DNA of 63,384 bases, filler included, from Asterionella formosa (Eukaryota), in NCBI GenBank assembly GCA_002256025.1. It is 17 parts of 17 records of this genome, joined end to end, with 100 filler letters (N's around TTAATTAATTAA, not from the genome) between each part and the next. Parts side by side here need not be neighbours in the genome. Positions count along the whole stretch, not along the records: positions 53,647 to 54,952 come from NKIB01003116.1; 16 more parts are not named here. The stretch is one strand, 5' to 3'. Position numbers and translations under genes: made by a program. Shown here piece after piece: positions 34,255 to 61,980 of this stretch (position 1 is the first letter of the stretch; the number at the start of each line of letters is the position of its first letter). The notes beneath the pieces are model-generated. The model made no database searches and was not told the origin of the DNA. It was given only the letters and a program-made list of their open reading frames with translations.

Positions 34255-34327
34255 TCTCTGTTAGCTCAGTTGGTAGAGCGCGGGACTGTTAATCCTGAGG
34301 CCGTAGGTTCGATCCCTACACAGAGAG
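34255..34327 (+). tRNA. tRNA-Asn (GTT)
   Basis: Cloverleaf: acceptor TCTCTGT/ACAGAGA, D-arm GCTC/GAGC, anticodon GTT at 34288-34290, T-arm GTAGG-TTCGATC-CCTAC; no encoded CCA; T-run terminator follows. Confidence 0.97.
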
Positions 34328-49200: not shown

Positions 49201-50834
49201 AGTTGCCAATGCCACCTTCCAAGAGTCCTCACATTGGAGTAGGCTTCTAATCCAAGATCATTCATAACTCCAATTGAATATTGGAGGCACTGCTGCCAGG
49301 TCCATCTGGTTTCCCCAATTTCCTTCTGAACAAACNNNNNNNNNNNNNNNNNNNNNNNNNNNNNNNNNNNNNNNNNNNNTTAATTAATTAANNNNNNNNN
49401 NNNNNNNNNNNNNNNNNNNNNNNNNNNNNNNNNNNAGATGAAGGCATTGAGTAACCTGGGCCTGTGAAGCCGAAGGATAAAGAAAAATCTATGACAAGGG
49501 TGGTGAGATAGTGTTTAGAAGGGGGGAGCAAAAGATATCATAGCTGAACGCATTCGAAACTTGTATAGACAATAAATGGTGACATGCCATGGCTGCTCTT
49601 GGCTGACAGCTGCCAAGTCAAGTACAAACACAACGAGCGAGGGTGCACAAAAGACAGTCCATCGACTGGCTGATACATAGTTTTGAGACTCACCATTCTC
49701 CAATGGGGTGGACTTTGATCATTGCTTCGTTCAAAGCACAATCAATTCGAATGCTGTCCAGTGAAACAGCCAATGAAAACAATTGTGGCGAAAAAGTGCA
49801 GAACAGATCAAGAGATTTCATAGGAAGTAAAATAACACAGGGCATATTCGATGCACTGCTCCTTGTGTAGACTAGCTATATTTGATCATTTCCATATTTC
49901 ATACTATACAGGTGCATGGATGACTCCTCCCGCCCTTTCATTAGATATGCAGCCATGTTGCGATAATTCTACAGGACCTACAGGATTTCTTTCAATAATT
50001 CAGTATGCGAATCTTTATGTGCCAGTTGTTCAATAATTCATTATAAATACAGCAGCATGACAAACAGCACGCCAAGGCACACTAACAACTCATGATTTAC
50101 GGAGCCCTGTTATCATATGACATTAACACAGAATCAGAAAGCAAGCAACAATACTCAATCCTGGATTTCATCCGAATGCTCCTGAATTGAAAGAGCTTGC
50201 TGCAATGTCAATTGAATCCTTGACTCAAATAAAAGAACTCTGCAATACAGTTGAATGGTGAGTGTGTTCTTGTTGTTTACCTAAATGCTAGTATGGCTTG
50301 TCAGCCAGCTCACGCATTGTTGTTGACAACAGGCAGGGACAATGAGGTCCGGAATGAAATGTGTGTTGCTTTCTGCTGTTGCTAGTTCTATCATATACAT
50401 TACTGACACACTGTTGTTATGAAAATCTCTGCAGGTCAATGAAGAAGCAAGCCATTTCAAGTACAAGAAGGAAATCAGTGTGTGAGGATGCATTCATGTT
50501 GCAACTTCGTAGAATGATGCCTGTTCAAGAGTGAATAATTTCCCCCTTCTGAACGAATAGCTTCTCCTCGTCTTGCAATGTCCTTACAGATGTCTCATAA
50601 TGCCTGCCTTCTCAAGACTGAAGATTCCATTCTGATAGAACAGCTTTGTTTGATTGCATATCGAGATTTGTTTCCCATGTAATGTGAAATACCGGTTGTT
50701 GAATTAGTAATCAACATTATTTGATAGTACTTTTNNNNNNNNNNNNNNNNNNNNNNNNNNNNNNNNNNNNNNNNNNNNTTAATTAATTAANNNNNNNNNN
50801 NNNNNNNNNNNNNNNNNNNNNNNNNNNNNNNNNN

Positions 50835-52014
50835 AATTAAGTCGTACGCAACGCCGGGTGTACCAGGAAAGACATTGAACAAGAATGACGGTGAAGTCAT
50901 TATGGAAGGAGAATATCGAAAAATTGTGGGCAAGTTACTATGATCTACAAAGAAGGATTCGCCGGACTGTGCGAATGCGGTGCGGGAACTATCGGCTCAT
51001 TTAAGTTGCCCAGGTGAAGAACAATGGCATGCAGTGCCAAGAGTCATTGGTTACCTATCCAATATGGAGGATAGAGTTCTCAAGTTGCGTAAGCCAAAAG
51101 AGTTAAGAGTCATTGCCTACGTGGACAGTGACTGGGCTGCTAATAAGGTTAACAGGAAGAGCACGACTGGCTATCTTGTTACTATTGGCGGGGCACTTAT
51201 CAGTTGGCAGTCGAAGGGACAACAAACGGTTACGCTGTCCAGTACGGAAGCCGAGTATGTGGCGATGTCCCAGTGTGGACAAGAGATCAAGTTTATAGCA
51301 ATGCTACTGAATGAGGTTACTGGTGGAAAGGTCATGTTACCAAGTATCCTACGAGAAGACAATACAGGAGCTATTTTTATCGCGAAGAATCAGCAAATCG
51401 GAACCAGGACAAAACATATTGATATTAAGTATCATCATGTAAAGGACATGATTGAGGATGAAGAATTGGAAGTCATTTTTATAAGGTCGGAAGATAATTT
51501 TGCGGACATTATGACCAAGAACGTGAAGGAACAGATTCATACGAGATTGTCCGAACCAGTTCAGAGTGGAACGATGTTACAGCCTCTTGAGCGTGGCAAT
51601 GGGGAGGATGTCAAGAATATTAGCCCGAGTCACAAGGATTGTGGACTCGATTGTAATCGAACGAGTCGAATATTGCATTGCCACGTCAATCAGCTGTCTA
51701 ACGAGATCAGAGATTGAAGATTTCTATGGAAATGTTAAGTGGAAACTCGAAGAGAGTCTTAGAATGACTTTGCAGGAAGCAAAGATGCATGGAAAGGAAA
51801 CATTTAGTTTAGCTTATAATTTAATTTGAGATTTAGATTATCAACCGAGGAAACAGTGTGTTAATTGACAGGAAGGTCAATTAGTCTATCTAGCAGGAAG
51901 GCTAGAAGCAGAGACAAGAGAGAAAGTGAGTGGTACTAGGTAGTACTACGATCACGTAAGAGTCTACGTGAAGAGAGACCCAACCCGCGGGAAGGAGTAC
52001 GGACCATTTCAACA
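50835..52014 (+). mobile_element. Copia 3' end, copy 1: RT end, RNase H, PPT, 406-bp 3' LTR (51609-52014)
   Basis: YVDSDWA, SSTEAEY, EDNTGA, TKHID, ADIMTK; PPT GGGGAGGA then TG...CA; premature TGA at 50941. Confidence 0.95.
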
Positions 52015-52240
52015 TGGCTTTGCTGAACTTTATTTTCTCATATACCCAGTATACAGGTATGTATCCAGTTAAGAAAAGTATCCATAAGAATTGTCTCGTC
52101 AGAGCAAACCCTCAGCCGCCAGGCGACAGAACAAATAAACNNNNNNNNNNNNNNNNNNNNNNNNNNNNNNNNNNNNNNNNNNNNTTAATTAATTAANNNN
52201 NNNNNNNNNNNNNNNNNNNNNNNNNNNNNNNNNNNNNNNN

Positions 52241-53420
52241 AATTAAGTCGTACGCAACGCCGGGTGTACCAGGAAAGACATTGAACAAGAATGACGGTGA
52301 AGTCATTATGGAAGGAGAATATCGAAAAATTGTGGGCAAGTTACTATGGTCTACAAAGAAGGATTCGCCGGACTGTGCGAATGCGGTTCGGGAACTATCG
52401 GCTCATTTAAGTTGCCCAGGTGAAGAACAATGGCATGCAGTGGCAAGAGTCATTGGTTACCTATCCAATATGGAGGATAGAGTTCTCAAGTTGCGTAAGC
52501 CAAAAGAGTTAAGAGTCATTGCCTACGTGGACAGTGACTGGGCTGCTAATAAGGTTAACAGGAAGAGCACGACTGGCTATCTTGTTACTATTGGCGGGGC
52601 ACTTATCAGTTGGCAGTCGAAGGGACAACAAACGGTTACGCTGTCCAGTACGGAAGCCGAGTATGTGGCGATGTCCCAGTGTGGACAAGAGATCAAGTTT
52701 ATAGCAATGCTACTGAATGAGGTTACTGGTGGTAAGGTCATGTTACCAAGTATCCTACGAGAAGACAATACAGGAGCTATTTTTATCGCGAAGAATCAGC
52801 AAATCGGAACCAGGACAAAACATATTGATATTAAGTATCATCATGTAAAGGACATGATTGAGGATGAAGAATTGGAAGTCATTTTTATAAGGTCGGAAGA
52901 TAATTTTGCGGACATTATGACCAAGAACGTGAAGGAACAGATTCATACGAGATTGTCCGAACCAGTTCAGAGTGGAACGATGTTACAGCCTCTTGAGCGT
53001 GGCAATGGGGAGGATGTCAAGAATATTAGCCCGAGTCACAAGGATTGTGGACTCGATTGTAATCGAACGAGTCGAATATTGCATTGCCACGTCAATCAGC
53101 TGTCTAACGAGATCAGAGATTGAAGATTTCTAAGGAAATGTTAAGTGGAAACTCGAAGAGAGTCTTAGAATGACTTTGCAGGAAGCAAAGATGCATGGAA
53201 AGGAAACATTTAGTTTAGCTTATAATTTAATTTGAGATTTAGATTATCAACCGAGGAAACAGTGTGTTAATTGACAGGAAGGTCAATTAGTCTATCTAGC
53301 AGGAAGGCTAGAAGCAGAGACAAGAGAGAAAGTGAGTGGTACTAGGTAGTACTACGATCACGTAAGAGTCTACGTGAAGAGAGACCCAACCTGCGGGAAG
53401 GAGTACGGACCATTTCAACA
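52241..53420 (+). mobile_element. Copia 3' end, copy 2: intact RT end, RNase H, PPT, 406-bp 3' LTR (53015-53420)
   Basis: Near-identical to copy 1 up to the terminal CA, then an unrelated flank. Confidence 0.95.
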
Positions 53421-53646
53421 TATTATTACTTATGTGGATTTGACTTGGTATTACCCATCCTTTGACCAAGCAATTCCTGCTCCAGATATCGTCTTGCCAT
53501 TCGGGTACTTCTTCTACAAGGAGTAACTTTTAGGCTCTAAGTAATTNNNNNNNNNNNNNNNNNNNNNNNNNNNNNNNNNNNNNNNNNNNNTTAATTAATT
53601 AANNNNNNNNNNNNNNNNNNNNNNNNNNNNNNNNNNNNNNNNNNNN

Positions 53647-54207
53647 GACCAAGCAGGACTGGCTTTGATAGTTCGGTGTCGGATTGGGGCATTTGTAACT
53701 GTCCCCACCTTGGTGGGGTGGAAGCGAATGCCTCATAGGTATTTGAGGAAGTGTCCATTTTGTGGTATGGAGGAACCAGAAACGCTGGAACACTTAGTGT
53801 TCACGTGTGGTCGGTGGCGTGGTCTACGCACCGAGCCACACATGGCAGAATTGATCGCGAAAGTTCGGACGTTAGGGCCGAATTTCGCCCTCGGTTTTGA
53901 CCAACAACGGTTGGCATGGCTCCTCGGAGGGAGTTGTGATAACCGCTGGGTACATGGATGGATGATGGGTGAACCAACCGGAGTCACAGCACAGCAAAAT
54001 TGTGACTCTTCGGTTGACAGCTCATCATCCGATGGGGACGGTAGCCAGATGGAACGGAACCCGGCAGGGGCCACCACCCTTGCCAGGTTCCTGATGAGCG
54101 TTGTTAGCCTTCGTGCTAACATAATCAGGTCCCGTTGGGGGTCTTACGCAAGTGAGGCATTTGACGGGGTCCCACACACCTCCACGGGCCAACGCCCCGA
54201 CGGGTAG
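53647..54207 (+). mobile_element. Non-LTR retrotransposon ORF C-terminus with CCHC zinc finger (partial)
   Basis: RCRIGAF...CPFCGMEEPETLEHLVFTC..W...LLGG, the C-x2-C-x9-H-x4-C finger that follows RT in LINEs. Confidence 0.8.
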
Positions 54208-54952
54208 GGCAGACCGCGTACTGGTCAAGACTGGGGCTGCACACAGGTTTTTAGTGAGTGAAAGTCTCACACTACCTCGCCCAGGTGAGAGGGGCGGGGT
54301 GCCTCACCGGACACTGGGACATGATTGGATGACGGGGTGCCTCAAACACATTCCTGAACACGTGAGCTGGTGGGAGGAGTTTGAATCCTCCCATGATGCC
54401 CCCCAAGCACCCCACAACGACGGGGCAGGCGGGCAAAGCGGCCGGATAGGTTTTCTCCTGGCGCCTTGGAACAGCCAAAAAAAAAAAAAAAAAACTTGGC
54501 TGTAGTTCTATTACAGAAAAAAATCCGGGTTTCTTCATGTGCAGCGACCCCTCCCCTGGCCAGGAGGGCAGGGGATGTGCCATCAGTAGGCCTGTGGAAG
54601 GAGGCACGGATGTTGCCAATGTGTGCCTTGGCAGGTGAACGTGGTTAAACTATCTCACCGAAATGTGGCAAAACTAGGTGGGTGGGATAGGATTCTTGAT
54701 GCTATGGGTGGCATGCACTGGAGTTCTGTCTCCTACCCCACTCCCACCTGAGTATTCACTATCATGACTACTCGCGGGACCTCTCTCTAAGCCTGGCAGG
54801 TCGAGATGCGGTTCCGGGCACGGGGAGACCAAAAAAGTGCCGAAACAAACACGTGCTTCGACAAATTATAGGAATCGACGGAGTGTCGTTCCACCCGCAG
54901 CTCCTCGGGGGCTGAACCAAGAAATTGGGACAGCTGAATTTGTGCAGGAGAC
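54190..54952 (+). ncRNA. Candidate structured RNA (retroelement UTR or embedded ncRNA)
   Basis: More than a dozen helices visible by eye, several with G-U pairs favouring the + strand; see findings. Confidence 0.5.
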
Positions 54953-55052: not shown

Positions 55053-55409
55053 TGATACACAGTGATCAACGGCTTGATCAGTGATACAGCATTGGTCAGG
55101 GGTCCAAAAACTGTATCAGTGATACACCCATGATACACCGGTGATCAGACCAAAAAAACCGTTGGTGATACACAAAAAAAAACCAAACCGCCATTTTTGT
55201 ATCATATTTCGGCGATGATACACCAATGACAACAAATAAAAGAATGATAAGAACGGCCCTAAATGGCGGTTTGGTTTTTTTTGTGTATCATAAACGGTTT
55301 TTTTGATCTGATCACCAGTGTATCATGGGTGTATCTCTGATACAGTTTTTAGACTCCTGACCAATGCTGTATCACTGATACAGCCGTTGAACACTGTGTA
55401 TCACGCCCG
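55053..55409. mobile_element. Foldback/MITE-like element with ~144-bp inverted arms
   Basis: 55053-55196 is a near reverse complement of 55261-55403, with a 64-bp spacer; many TGATACA/TGTATCA sub-repeats. Left tip lost at the contig edge. Confidence 0.88.
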
Positions 55410-60676: not shown

Positions 60677-60906
60677 ACGGCGATTCTGTTCTATCTGACA
60701 ATCATTTCGGGTTTACAGACATCCCCTGATGATTGCTGGAGCCGAAGCTACCAGAAGTGGCACTTGGCTGCTTACGCAGCTAGTTGCGCACCGTAATTGT
60801 CGTCATTGGCAATTATGGATTTTTGCAACAGTGGATTTACGAGTCCTGTTACCTACTCGGCATGCCCCTAAAGTTTCGCGACCGGCGTCGAATCCTAATC
60901 GGCCCC
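60677..60906 (-). ncRNA. ssrA: Bacterial tmRNA, 5' 230 nt (3' part cut by spacer); tag peptide ANDDNYGAQLAA
   Basis: Minus strand begins GGGGCCGATTAGGATTCGACGCCGG; tag frame 60810-60772 reads GCC AAT GAC GAC AAT TAC GGT GCG CAA CTA GCT GCG TAA. Confidence 0.97.
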
Positions 60907-60981
60907 AAAGCTGTAGTTACACAGCTCTGACCGGCAGTTTACGGGAAAGGTTCCCTAGCGTCGACAGCCACGGCGTTTTGG

Positions 60982-61227
60982 CTAGTTGCTGGCGTCGAGC
61001 AGTTGCAGCGCTTCGTTGAGTACCTTGACCGATTCGTCGTGCTTGCCGGCCTTATGCAGGCCTTCACCTTCGGCGCGCAGCTTGCGGACTTCAGCCAGTA
61101 CGGTCTGGTCTCTGGGTGGGTCGTTTTTGAGGATTTCGTCGATCTTGGCCATGTCTGCTGGGCAGTGCATGGCCCAGAGTGCGGTGCTGAACAGGAGGCT
61201 GCAGATAAACAGGCTGAGGCGGCGCAT
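60982..61227 (-). CDS. Small bacterial exported protein
   Basis: GGAGA ribosome-binding site before ATG 61227; signal peptide ending ALWA; mature MHCPADMAKID...HKAGKHDES. Confidence 0.85.
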   Translation of the reverse strand: MRRLSLFICSLLFSTALWAMHCPADMAKIDEILKNDPPRDQTVLAEVRKLRAEGEGLHKAGKHDESVKVLNEALQLLDASN

Positions 61228-61292
61228 CGGTATTCTCCACGGGCGGGCTTTCAAGATAGGAAGCCCGTCGTGGTGATTGGTTCCCCTGCTGT

Positions 61293-61980
61293 TTAGATCG
61301 CAGGCCTGGCGGTGGTGACGCGATCGACCAGATAGACCAAGCCGTGATAGTCGATGCCGGCATGATGGGACAGGCCGATCTCACAGGTGCGGCTGGTGGA
61401 GACGCCTTCCTCGCAGATTTGCACCGCGTCCTTCAGGCTGCGCAACGCGTGGGCATTCAGCTCGGGAGTGGTGAAGCCTTTGTCGCCGGCAAAGCCACAG
61501 CAGTGGATGCCTTCCGGCACAACCAGTTGCTGCGTGCAGCGACTGACGATGTCGAGCAGGCCCTGGGCTTCGCCCAAGTGTTGGGTGCTGCAGGTGACGT
61601 GCACGGCCACGGGGGCTTGCTGCGGGGTGAATGTGAGGCGCTCAAGCAAATGCTCGCGAATGAATTTCACCGGGTCGTGCAGTTTCAGTCGCGGGTCTAG
61701 GTCGTCTTGCAGCAGACGCAGGGTGCAGGGACTGGTGTCGCAGTAGATCGGATCGAGGCCGCCACGACTGGCTTTGAGCAGGGCGTTGATCAGCTCCTGG
61801 CGCTTGCTGTCAGCTTGTTCGGCGTAGCCTTTGGAGGCGAATGGTTGGCCGCAGCAGAGGTTGTCTAGGTCGTCCGGGAATACCACCTGGAAGCCGCCTT
61901 TTTCCAGCAGGCCACGCGTCTTGTCGAGCAGCGAAACTTGCTCGGTGTCGCCGAATGACGGACCCATGGCGCGCGAAACA
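61293..61980 (-). CDS. lldE: C-terminus of bacterial FAD/Fe-S NAD-independent D-lactate dehydrogenase (partial)
   Basis: Two CCG domains (LCCGQPFASKG...DTSPC; HVTCS...HCCGFAGDKG...SRTCEIG); high-GC bacterial codon usage. Confidence 0.88.

What the first reader, a model, noticed from the sequence alone, without database searches (positions are those of the whole stretch)
54190..54952. ~750-nt densely folded RNA-like tract starting at the stop codon of a non-LTR retrotransposon
Seen: almost continuous helices. GCCC/GGGC around the TAG; GACC/GGTC; ACCTCGCCC/GGGCGGGGT (54274-54300); TGGGAGGA/TCCTCCCA (54371-54393); TGCCCC/GGGGCA (54397-54427); AGGCG/CGCCT; ACAGCCAA/TTGGCTGT around an A18 run (54471-54503); CCCCT/AGGGG; GTGCC/GGCAC; TGCCAA/TTGGCA; GGTGA/TCACC; a long TAGGTGGG...TAGGA / TCCTA...CCCACCTG arm (54675-54750); GAGTA/TACTC; GACCT/AGGTC; GGAATCGAC/GTCGTTCC; CAGCTCC/GGGGCTG; CCAA-GAAA-TTGG. 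Long-range closers: GCTGCACA (54236-43) with TGTGCAGC (54538-45), and GCGGG (54774-78) with CCCGC (54894-98). Known: non-LTR elements use structured UTRs for RT recognition and some carry HDV-like or hammerhead ribozymes; neither core is recognisable here. Inference: a large multi-domain retroelement RNA module (possible ribozyme, IRES or template-recognition element), or the 3'/5' UTR junction of tandem copies.
Basis: partly seen in the sequence, partly recalled or inferred. Interest (0 to 1): 0.72.

Follow-up and report, generated by a model that had tools for sequence, protein, structure and literature searches.

The report
Conserved folded tail of a retrotransposon
The 750 bases are a patchwork, but the first 300 are the folded RNA tail of a jumping gene: distant relatives keep the same shape, it probably grips the RNA's poly(A) tail and marks the RNA for copying, and it has jumped on its own many times.

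Summary
The tract is not one RNA module. It is (1) the end and 3' UTR of an APE-RT non-LTR retrotransposon up to its A18 tail (54182-54494), (2) two scrap pieces, one copied from the element's own ORF (54495-54637), and (3) the 5' UTR and first codons of the next copy (54638-54952). As a whole it folds no better than the element's coding region. Part 1 is real: a covariance model finds it at the 3' end of relatives down to about 30% protein identity (57 matches, all sense strand; 18 of 20 pairs with two-sided changes; none in 57 more distant RT loci). It combines a tetraloop-receptor-like hairpin that often straddles the stop codon, a T-arm, and two U-runs held face to face by covarying long-range stems about 20 nt before the poly(A): an ENE-like poly(A) clamp interrupted by two helices. 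A non-autonomous partner shares it, and 13 of 18 true 5' junctions start within 6 nt of its 5' edge, several with target-site duplications. No Rfam match. The family's 5' end carries an HDV-like fold, of which only a 13-nt remnant lies in the tract. Triple helix and protein recognition are inferred, not shown.

The parts
53647..54207 (+). 3' end of the single ORF (APE-RT-CCHC finger); stop TAG 54205-54207; C-terminal GQRPxG peptide shared by distant relatives
   Evidence: zf-RVT E 0.057, below cut-off; RVT_1 E 1.9e-27; Exo_endo_phos E 0.005, below cut-off
54182..54187 (+). 5' edge of the mobile module: solo copies start at 54181-54186
54188..54210 (+). H1: hairpin with asymmetric internal loop resembling the 11-nt tetraloop receptor; its UAR triplet is the stop codon here
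54212..54226 (+). H2: 4-bp stem with 7-nt loop (G-Y-G-H-A-C-U type in 19 of 45 relatives)
54244..54253 (+). S1 5' strand (54244-47), U-run 1 (54248-52) and conserved A
54254..54270 (+). T-arm: 5-bp stem with 7-nt loop, U at position 1 and A at position 5 (label T-loop is recalled)
54273..54301 (+). P5 stem, variable length
54302..54450 (+). S2 long-range stem (54302-04 with 54448-50) enclosing a variable domain with a kink-turn-like motif (about 54327-54359; label recalled) and a YNGAA-loop hairpin (54370-54394)
54451..54460 (+). U-run 2 (54451-54) and S1 3' strand (54457-60)
54477..54494 (+). poly(A) tail, A18; end of the element
54495..54558 (+). piece D: scrap of a multi-copy target region; 54495-54507 equals the P3/L3 stretch of the family's HDV-like fold
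54559..54637 (+). piece E: 79-nt copy (96%) of the element's own coding sequence
54638..54836 (+). 5' UTR of the next copy, lacking the first 9 nt of its usual start
54837..54952 (+). probable coding start of the next copy at a GUG (no AUG for about 70 more codons); cut by the contig end

Best explanation
The tract is a junction inside an array of copies of one non-LTR retrotransposon: a full 3' end with poly(A), scrap left by nested insertion and template jumping, then the 5' part of another copy (shown). The 3' end is a conserved, compactly folded RNA domain of about 300 nt (secondary structure shown by covariation). Most likely it has two jobs. (a) It is the cis signal that the element's protein binds to select its template for target-primed reverse transcription, so any RNA that carries it plus poly(A) is mobile (inferred from the non-autonomous partner and the solo modules). 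(b) Its two U-runs, held face to face by stems S1 and S2, capture the poly(A) tail 17-32 nt downstream in a U.A-U triple helix as ENEs do, protecting an RNA that probably lacks a cap because its 5' end is cut by an HDV-like ribozyme (inferred). The receptor-like loop, T-arm and kink-turn-like motif would pack the domain in three dimensions (inferred from motif likeness). The sharp 5' edge of solo copies most likely marks where reverse transcription lets go of, or runs off, the RNA at the domain boundary (inferred; about 45% against the rivals below).
For: Composite: downstream of the A-run all 8 distinct right junctions differ; piece E maps to the ORF and piece F continues into the APE domain in other copies. 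Structure: RNAalifold on a plain MAFFT alignment of 12 sequences gives 9 of 20 pairs with two-sided changes (0 of 500 shuffles for my near-identical structure). The model built from it gives 57 matches, all on the sense strand, in 100 sources of 549 kb (12 are training sequences), 18 of 20 pairs with two-sided changes on the fitted alignment, and 0 matches in 57 more distant RT loci of 362 kb. An independent T-arm descriptor hits 26 of 156 foreign loci on +, 0 on -. Long-range S1, which is not in the model, gives 4.2 Watson-Crick pairs against 2.1 +- 0.23 when partners are swapped between elements, 0 of 5000 (27 distinct rows); the U-run-to-poly(A) distance is 17-32 nt in 25 of 27. A 920-nt non-autonomous element with a target-site duplication joins the HDV-like 5' end to a covarying version of the module (L319). 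13 of 18 true 5' junctions start at 54181-54186, 5 of the 8 with both flanks show 13-18 bp duplications, and they carry several haplotypes shared with full-length copies plus old diverged ones. HDV descriptor: 11 hits on +, 0 on - in 387 kb.
Against: No triple helix, stabilisation or protein binding is shown. The U-rich loop is not a simple internal loop, so it fails one ENE feature. S2 covariation is weak (57 of 5000). 25 of the 57 matches were dropped before the S1 test (no T-arm column, no poly(A) in reach, or no U-run found) and U-run 2 was picked by rule. The module has no energy signal by itself and the covarying fold is 5.6 kcal/mol above the minimum in the window copy. 17 sufficiently long loci inside the carrier clade have no model hit, and that clade has support only 0.72. 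No cognate tetraloop for the receptor-like loop was identified. The poly(A)-to-D joint itself could not be checked in reads (repeat skipped).
Confidence: 0.68

Rival explanations
1. The module is released as a stable RNA of its own: a 5'-3' exonuclease stalls at, or a nuclease or the RNA itself cuts at, 54182; this 300-nt RNA, protected at both ends, is then retrotransposed. The structure is the same as in the best explanation, but the sharp edge is an RNA end, not a reverse-transcription stop.
For: 11 of 13 solo junctions start at 54181/54182; the variable first base is target-derived where a duplication can be read and no extra G (cap signature) is seen; C is enriched 5-6 nt and G 2 nt before H1 in relatives (32, 27 and 39 of 45); loose ends at 54182 in 6 contigs of run X1; the second sharp start (28 junctions) begins with the same four bases.
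Against: The leader/H2 pseudoknot that an exonuclease-resistant RNA would need is inconclusive (11 against 8.2; 331 of 5000); no ribozyme family matches; only contigs, no raw RNA reads, were available.
Confidence: 0.3
2. The domain is only a template-recognition element; the U-runs form U.U mismatches or bind protein and do not capture poly(A).
For: Two helices interrupt the loop on one side, unlike described ENEs; stringent LINEs have covarying 3' structures without a described triplex.
Against: Both U-runs, an adjacent G-C pair (20 of 27 rows, counted by eye) and the short distance to poly(A) persist while the flanking stems change freely, which is the ENE pattern.
Confidence: 0.25
3. The module holds an internal promoter and is transcribed as a SINE-like unit starting at 54182.
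For: Sharp starts; L1Tc has a promoter and ribozyme in one 77-nt stretch.
Against: A run of five T lies 66 nt downstream and would stop polymerase III (general knowledge); no cap-derived G; solo copies do not descend from one master.
Confidence: 0.12
4. The whole 750 nt is one functional RNA (ribozyme or IRES), as first proposed.
For: z about -3.4 on both strands; the same junction occurs in 5 contigs.
Against: Composite origin; the coding region folds better; those 5 contigs may be one locus; no relative keeps pieces D and E behind the poly(A).
Confidence: 0.03
5. The array structure is an assembly artefact of a collapsed repeat.
For: Short contigs, many near-identical; the A-run joint was not testable.
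Against: Fragments are in the same orientation in all but one locus mapped and start at two exact positions; other samples show the same kind of joints (L239, L241; runs X15 and X16); 16-25 bp duplications match left and right junctions.
Confidence: 0.08

Closest known systems
ENE (element for nuclear expression) of KSHV PAN RNA, Evade/Copia93 and other plant and fungal transposons (PMC7583470, PMC12501189, PMC13541005; passages seen)
   Same: Two U-runs facing each other between short stems with adjacent G-C pairs, near the 3' end, poly(A) downstream, in a transposon RNA.
   Different: A T-arm and a further helix are inserted between U-run 1 and the upper stem; the upper stem encloses 50-330 nt; it sits in a non-LTR element, whereas the passages seen name LTR elements, hAT transposons and fish retroviruses. 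Tycowski et al. 2016, the main survey, was not held, so a non-LTR case there is not excluded.
Stringent LINE 3' recognition structures and R2 SIDEs (PMC3747384, PMC3414825; passages seen)
   Same: Covarying 3' UTR shared with a non-autonomous element made of ribozyme, spacer and 3' end; target-site duplications; tandem arrays; template jumps.
   Different: Much larger and motif-rich; kept over about 30% protein identity; often overlaps the ORF (stop codon inside the motif in 13 of 37, motif inside the ORF in 14, in the UTR in 10); the bare module is itself a recurrent insertion.
HDV-like ribozymes of R2, RTE and L1Tc (PMC3774820, PMC3185411, PMC6765202; passages seen)
   Same: The family's 5' end fits P1-P4 with a C in J4/2 and marks exact 5' starts.
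   Different: It lies outside the tract (only a 13-nt remnant is inside); here P1 starts with C and P1.1 is GG in L3 with CC, reversed relative to two copies in L281.
11-nt GAAA tetraloop receptor (sequence as given in PMC10004510; passage seen)
   Same: Same loop geometry, with the closing C-G, the G.U pair and the U-A and A positions kept in most of 46 rows.
   Different: The exact 5' strand occurs in 1 of 46 and the exact 3' strand in 10 of 46; no partner tetraloop identified.

Membership tests
ENE | U-runs on both strands of the loop | tested here: met
   4-7 U and 3-7 U in the 27 distinct rows (rows lacking them were dropped before)
ENE | Flanking stems with G-C pairs next to the loop | tested here: met
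   S1 0 of 5000, S2 57 of 5000 permutations; adjacent G-C in 20 of 27 by eye
ENE | Simple internal loop between two stems | tested here: not met
   T-arm and P5 are inserted on the 5' side; hence ENE-like, not filed as an ENE
ENE | Poly(A) or A-rich tract downstream | tested here: met
   17-32 nt after U-run 2 in 25 of 27
ENE | U.A-U triple helix and RNA stabilisation | not testable with these tools
   needs melting, probing and decay assays
Stringent LINE/SIDE pair | 3' end shared with a non-autonomous element flanked by target-site duplication | tested here: met
   L319, L240
Stringent LINE/SIDE pair | 3' UTR required for retrotransposition | not testable with these tools
   needs an assay
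HDV-like ribozyme (the tract itself) | Nested double pseudoknot P1-P4 | tested here: not met
   no descriptor hit in the window, no Rfam hit
HDV-like ribozyme (family 5' end, outside the window) | P1, P1.1, P2, P3, P4 topology with C in J4/2 and G in L3 | tested here: met
   L012, L015 and 11 hits in 10 of 80 metagenome loci, 0 on the minus strand; RF02682 below gathering score for L281 only; no HDV hit for own copies
HDV-like ribozyme (family 5' end, outside the window) | Self-cleavage at the P1 start | not testable with these tools
   indirect only: 9 distinct junctions start at the P1 start
11-nt tetraloop receptor | Receptor sequence | tested here: inconclusive
   variant at two to three positions in most rows
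11-nt tetraloop receptor | Cognate GNRA loop docking | not tested
   no partner assigned
Exoribonuclease-resistant RNA | Pseudoknot bracing the 5' end | tested here: inconclusive
   331 of 5000
Any Rfam 15 family (incl. hammerhead, twister, twister sister, pistol, hatchet models held there) | Covariance-model match | tested here: not met
Named non-LTR clade (RTEX, L1/Tx1, RTE) | Placement in an RT tree with reference elements | not tested
   no reference set at hand; best solved relative is L1 ORF2p, E 1e-25; an RTEX-like guess is recalled from motifs only

The most novel reading that the evidence does not exclude
The 300-nt module is a self-contained RNA protected at both ends (a poly(A) triple helix at the 3' end; an exonuclease block or a new type of self-cleavage at 54182) that is produced from the retrotransposon mRNA and retrotransposed as a minimal mobile unit: a portable 'stability plus copy-me' tag used by an old non-LTR clade across distant eukaryotes.
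Probability: 0.25. Interest if true: 0.85.

Novelty: new variant of a known kind. Interest (0 to 1): 0.66.

Why it matters
Non-LTR elements need their poly(A) tail both to survive decay and to prime reverse transcription; how an uncapped, ribozyme-cut RNA keeps it is open. A deeply conserved, covariation-defined domain that may hold the tail in a triple helix and also licenses copying makes that testable with a 300-nt RNA. It is absent from Rfam, extends ENE-like elements to a junction-interrupted form, explains a 'conserved' C-terminal peptide as an RNA constraint, and offers a naturally minimised template for retrotransposon-based gene insertion.

Tried and rejected
Rfam at gathering and E-value thresholds: nothing for the module in the window or in six related loci (the mir-1285 hit, E 1.6 or worse, is chance). 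Folding energy as evidence: rejected. Telomeric-array idea: telomere-repeat contigs fetched match the element pieces only through the repeat itself; one array carries three repeats internally. Single master SINE for solo modules: rejected. Leader/H2 pseudoknot: inconclusive. Twister, pistol and twister-sister likeness: compared by eye with recalled consensus, no conserved scissile strand; not a test. Viral contigs: no relative. RNA runs X15 and X16 hold the module and the ORF end as contigs only; this shows presence, not strand, ends or level; the contig of the non-autonomous element has depth 508 against 8-13 in X15, which the tool says cannot rank expression. Run X1 may be the source sample and is not independent. 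My first right-junction scan had a faulty pattern and found 0 (corrected). Earlier scan notes: nothing by sequence or words. Literature: 0 papers for HDV-like ribozyme + non-LTR + diatom, 0 for ENE + LINE retrotransposon + triple helix, 0 for four of retrotransposon, T-loop, kink-turn, tetraloop receptor, untranslated region; 23 for xrRNA + retrotransposon, 12 listed, none on this by title. These cover open-access full text only; Repbase reports, subscription journals and the supplements of Tycowski 2016 were not seen.

Full report
Setting. The window is a chain of short contigs joined by artificial spacers; the finding lies on a 1306-nt contig, 53647-54952, so the tract ends at a contig end. 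The host is probably a diatom: a cluster 82% identical in the RT region holds a protein that its source names for a diatom, more distant ones come from brown algae, and earlier unchecked notes call this genome a diatom.

Observation. The listed helices are present and the tract folds at z -3.4 on either strand. That is not distinctive: the element's coding region gives z -4.3 to -15.9 and -2.4 to -9.9 against synonymous-codon shuffles in a full-length copy. Piece by piece no part of the tract is beyond -2.1, and the conserved module scores +0.5.

Anatomy. A search of the genome returns 76 matches that break at the same places. Mapped on real copies the tract is: ORF end; 3' UTR to an A18 tail (54477-54494); piece D (54495-54558); piece E (54559-54637), a 96% copy of the element's coding sequence; piece F (54638-54952), which in other copies runs on into the endonuclease domain. 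The ORF is APE-RT with a C-terminal CCHC finger. It has no early AUG; a GUG at 54837 is the probable start, since a 73%-identical relative has an in-frame stop 9 codons before the equivalent GUG. The clade is not assigned.

Arrays. In the loci held there are 28 distinct left junctions to one exact 5' start and 9 to a second, and 8 distinct right junctions after the poly(A), all different. Fragments are sense-oriented in all but one locus. Two of the 8 right junctions match left junctions on other contigs by 16-25 bp duplications, which points to insertion into other copies; short ORF scraps between a poly(A) and a 5' start, as in the window, fit template jumps, which are documented for R2 (passages). 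Similar joints occur in other samples.

The conserved module. Relatives end in GQRPxG or similar after a poorly conserved tail. DNA of 80 metagenome loci shows why: a structured RNA overlaps the stop. On a plain alignment of 12 sequences 9 of 20 predicted pairs change on both sides (0 of 500 shuffles). The model finds 57 matches, all sense, in 100 sources, 18 of 20 pairs with two-sided changes on the fitted alignment, which leans towards the model, and none in 57 more distant RT loci. A separate T-arm descriptor hits 26 of 156 loci on + and 0 on -. In an RT tree the 46 carriers fall in one clade of 86 tips (support 0.72), in which 17 long loci lack a hit and 23 are too short to tell. The stop codon coincides with the motif's UAR in 13 of 37 cases, the motif is inside the ORF in 14 and in the UTR in 10, so the RNA and not the peptide is what is kept. 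H1's internal loop resembles the 11-nt tetraloop receptor. Optional parts are a kink-turn-like motif (9 of 32 against 0.2 in shuffles) and a YNGAA hairpin (9 of 32 against 0.6); both are in the window copy, and both patterns were written after seeing the sequences.

ENE-like core. U-run 1 precedes the T-arm; U-run 2 lies 17-32 nt before the poly(A) in 25 of 27 rows. Their outer flanks pair specifically: 4.2 pairs against 2.1 +- 0.23 on swapping partners, 0 of 5000; the inner flanks more weakly, 57 of 5000 (32 of 57 matches usable, 27 distinct, one row a mis-paired duplicate left in). Neither stem was in the model. This is the pattern described for ENEs, U-rich loop with adjacent G-C pairs and a poly(A) third strand (passages), except that two helices interrupt one side. 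I therefore call it ENE-like and not an ENE.

Mobility. A 920-nt element with a target-site duplication consists of an HDV-like 5' end, a spacer without a long ORF and a covarying version of the module, like R2 SIDEs. Of 22 junction rows upstream of H1, 3 are stops of my extension at mismatches and 1 is the border of that element; of the other 18, 13 start at 54181-54186 (two of them have near-identical flanks and may be alleles). 5 of 8 with both flanks show 13-18 bp duplications. They carry several haplotypes, so the module has been cut out repeatedly. Copies truncated inside the module would be invisible to that scan; 39 of 40 scored matches to the last 72 nt lie on contigs that also hold H1, the fortieth begins at a contig start, and 66 of 106 candidates were not scored.

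The 5' ribozyme. The second exact start fits the HDV topology; a descriptor gives 11 hits on + and 0 on - in 387 kb of relatives, mostly upstream of the ORF, and none in the window. HDV-like ribozymes at non-LTR 5' ends are known. Only 54495-54507 of the tract derives from it.

Mechanism. Shown: composite origin, secondary structure, sharing with a non-autonomous element, independent insertion. Inferred: the protein selects its template through this domain; the U-runs clamp the poly(A) of an uncapped RNA; the sharp 5' edge is a reverse-transcription release point (about 45%), a processed RNA end (35%) or a promoter start (20%).

Novelty. Structured LINE tails, SIDEs, ENEs in transposons and 5' HDV-like ribozymes are each known. 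I found no description of this motif in Rfam or in the open-access searches, but the main ENE survey was not held and Repbase was not searchable. Papers: passages seen of PMC7583470, PMC12501189, PMC13541005, PMC10004510, PMC3747384, PMC11203168, PMC3774820, PMC3414825, PMC6765202; passages and one section of PMC3185411; nothing of PMC4864102. The labels T-loop, kink-turn and RTEX are recalled. Verdict: the 750-nt claim fails, a 300-nt new variant stands; interest 0.66.

Noticed in passing
L239:570-5069; L055; window 53880-54185: The coding region of the element folds well beyond synonymous-codon shuffles along its whole length (z -2.4 to -9.9), the ORF tail at z -4.4; relatives show it patchily.
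   Followed up: partly
L319:1495-2400 (G000:C14060): Complete non-autonomous partner: HDV-like 5' end, about 550-nt spacer, 3' module, poly(A), target-site duplication.
   Followed up: yes
L021:1434-1451: Three telomere-type repeats replace a short stretch inside a 5' UTR fragment of one array.
   Followed up: partly
L243:1-130 and 3' end: A relative sits in what reads as large-subunit rDNA (by eye), with the start of a target-site duplication after its poly(A).
   Followed up: partly
L281:201-4491: A relative follows SSU, 5.8S and LSU rRNA genes (SSU best fits the microsporidian model) and starts with two tandem HDV-like folds.
   Followed up: partly
L252:1-25: A relative's HDV-like start is preceded by TTAGG repeats.
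   Followed up: no
L013:1-740: A multi-copy host stretch (18 matches) lies beside many arrays and looks like an insertion hot spot; piece D belongs to its edge.
   Followed up: partly
window 54638 (F start) and 54182: Both sharp 5' starts begin with the same four bases, preceded by T or C (15 C, 12 T, 1 A of 28); the same four bases end the P2 strand of the HDV-like fold. Unexplained.
   Followed up: partly
window 50835-53546: Two near-identical copia-type pol ends with downstream LTR-like sequence on adjacent contigs (family read by eye).
   Followed up: no
window 55053-55405: Imperfect palindrome of about 350 bp at a contig start, foldback or MITE-like (by eye).
   Followed up: no
window 60677-61980: Contig of about 60% G+C with bacterial-looking frames, probably contamination.
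   Followed up: no
window 34255-34327: tRNA gene.
   Followed up: no
window 49436-50734: This contig resembles the flank upstream of the truncated copy in L023 (by eye).
   Followed up: no
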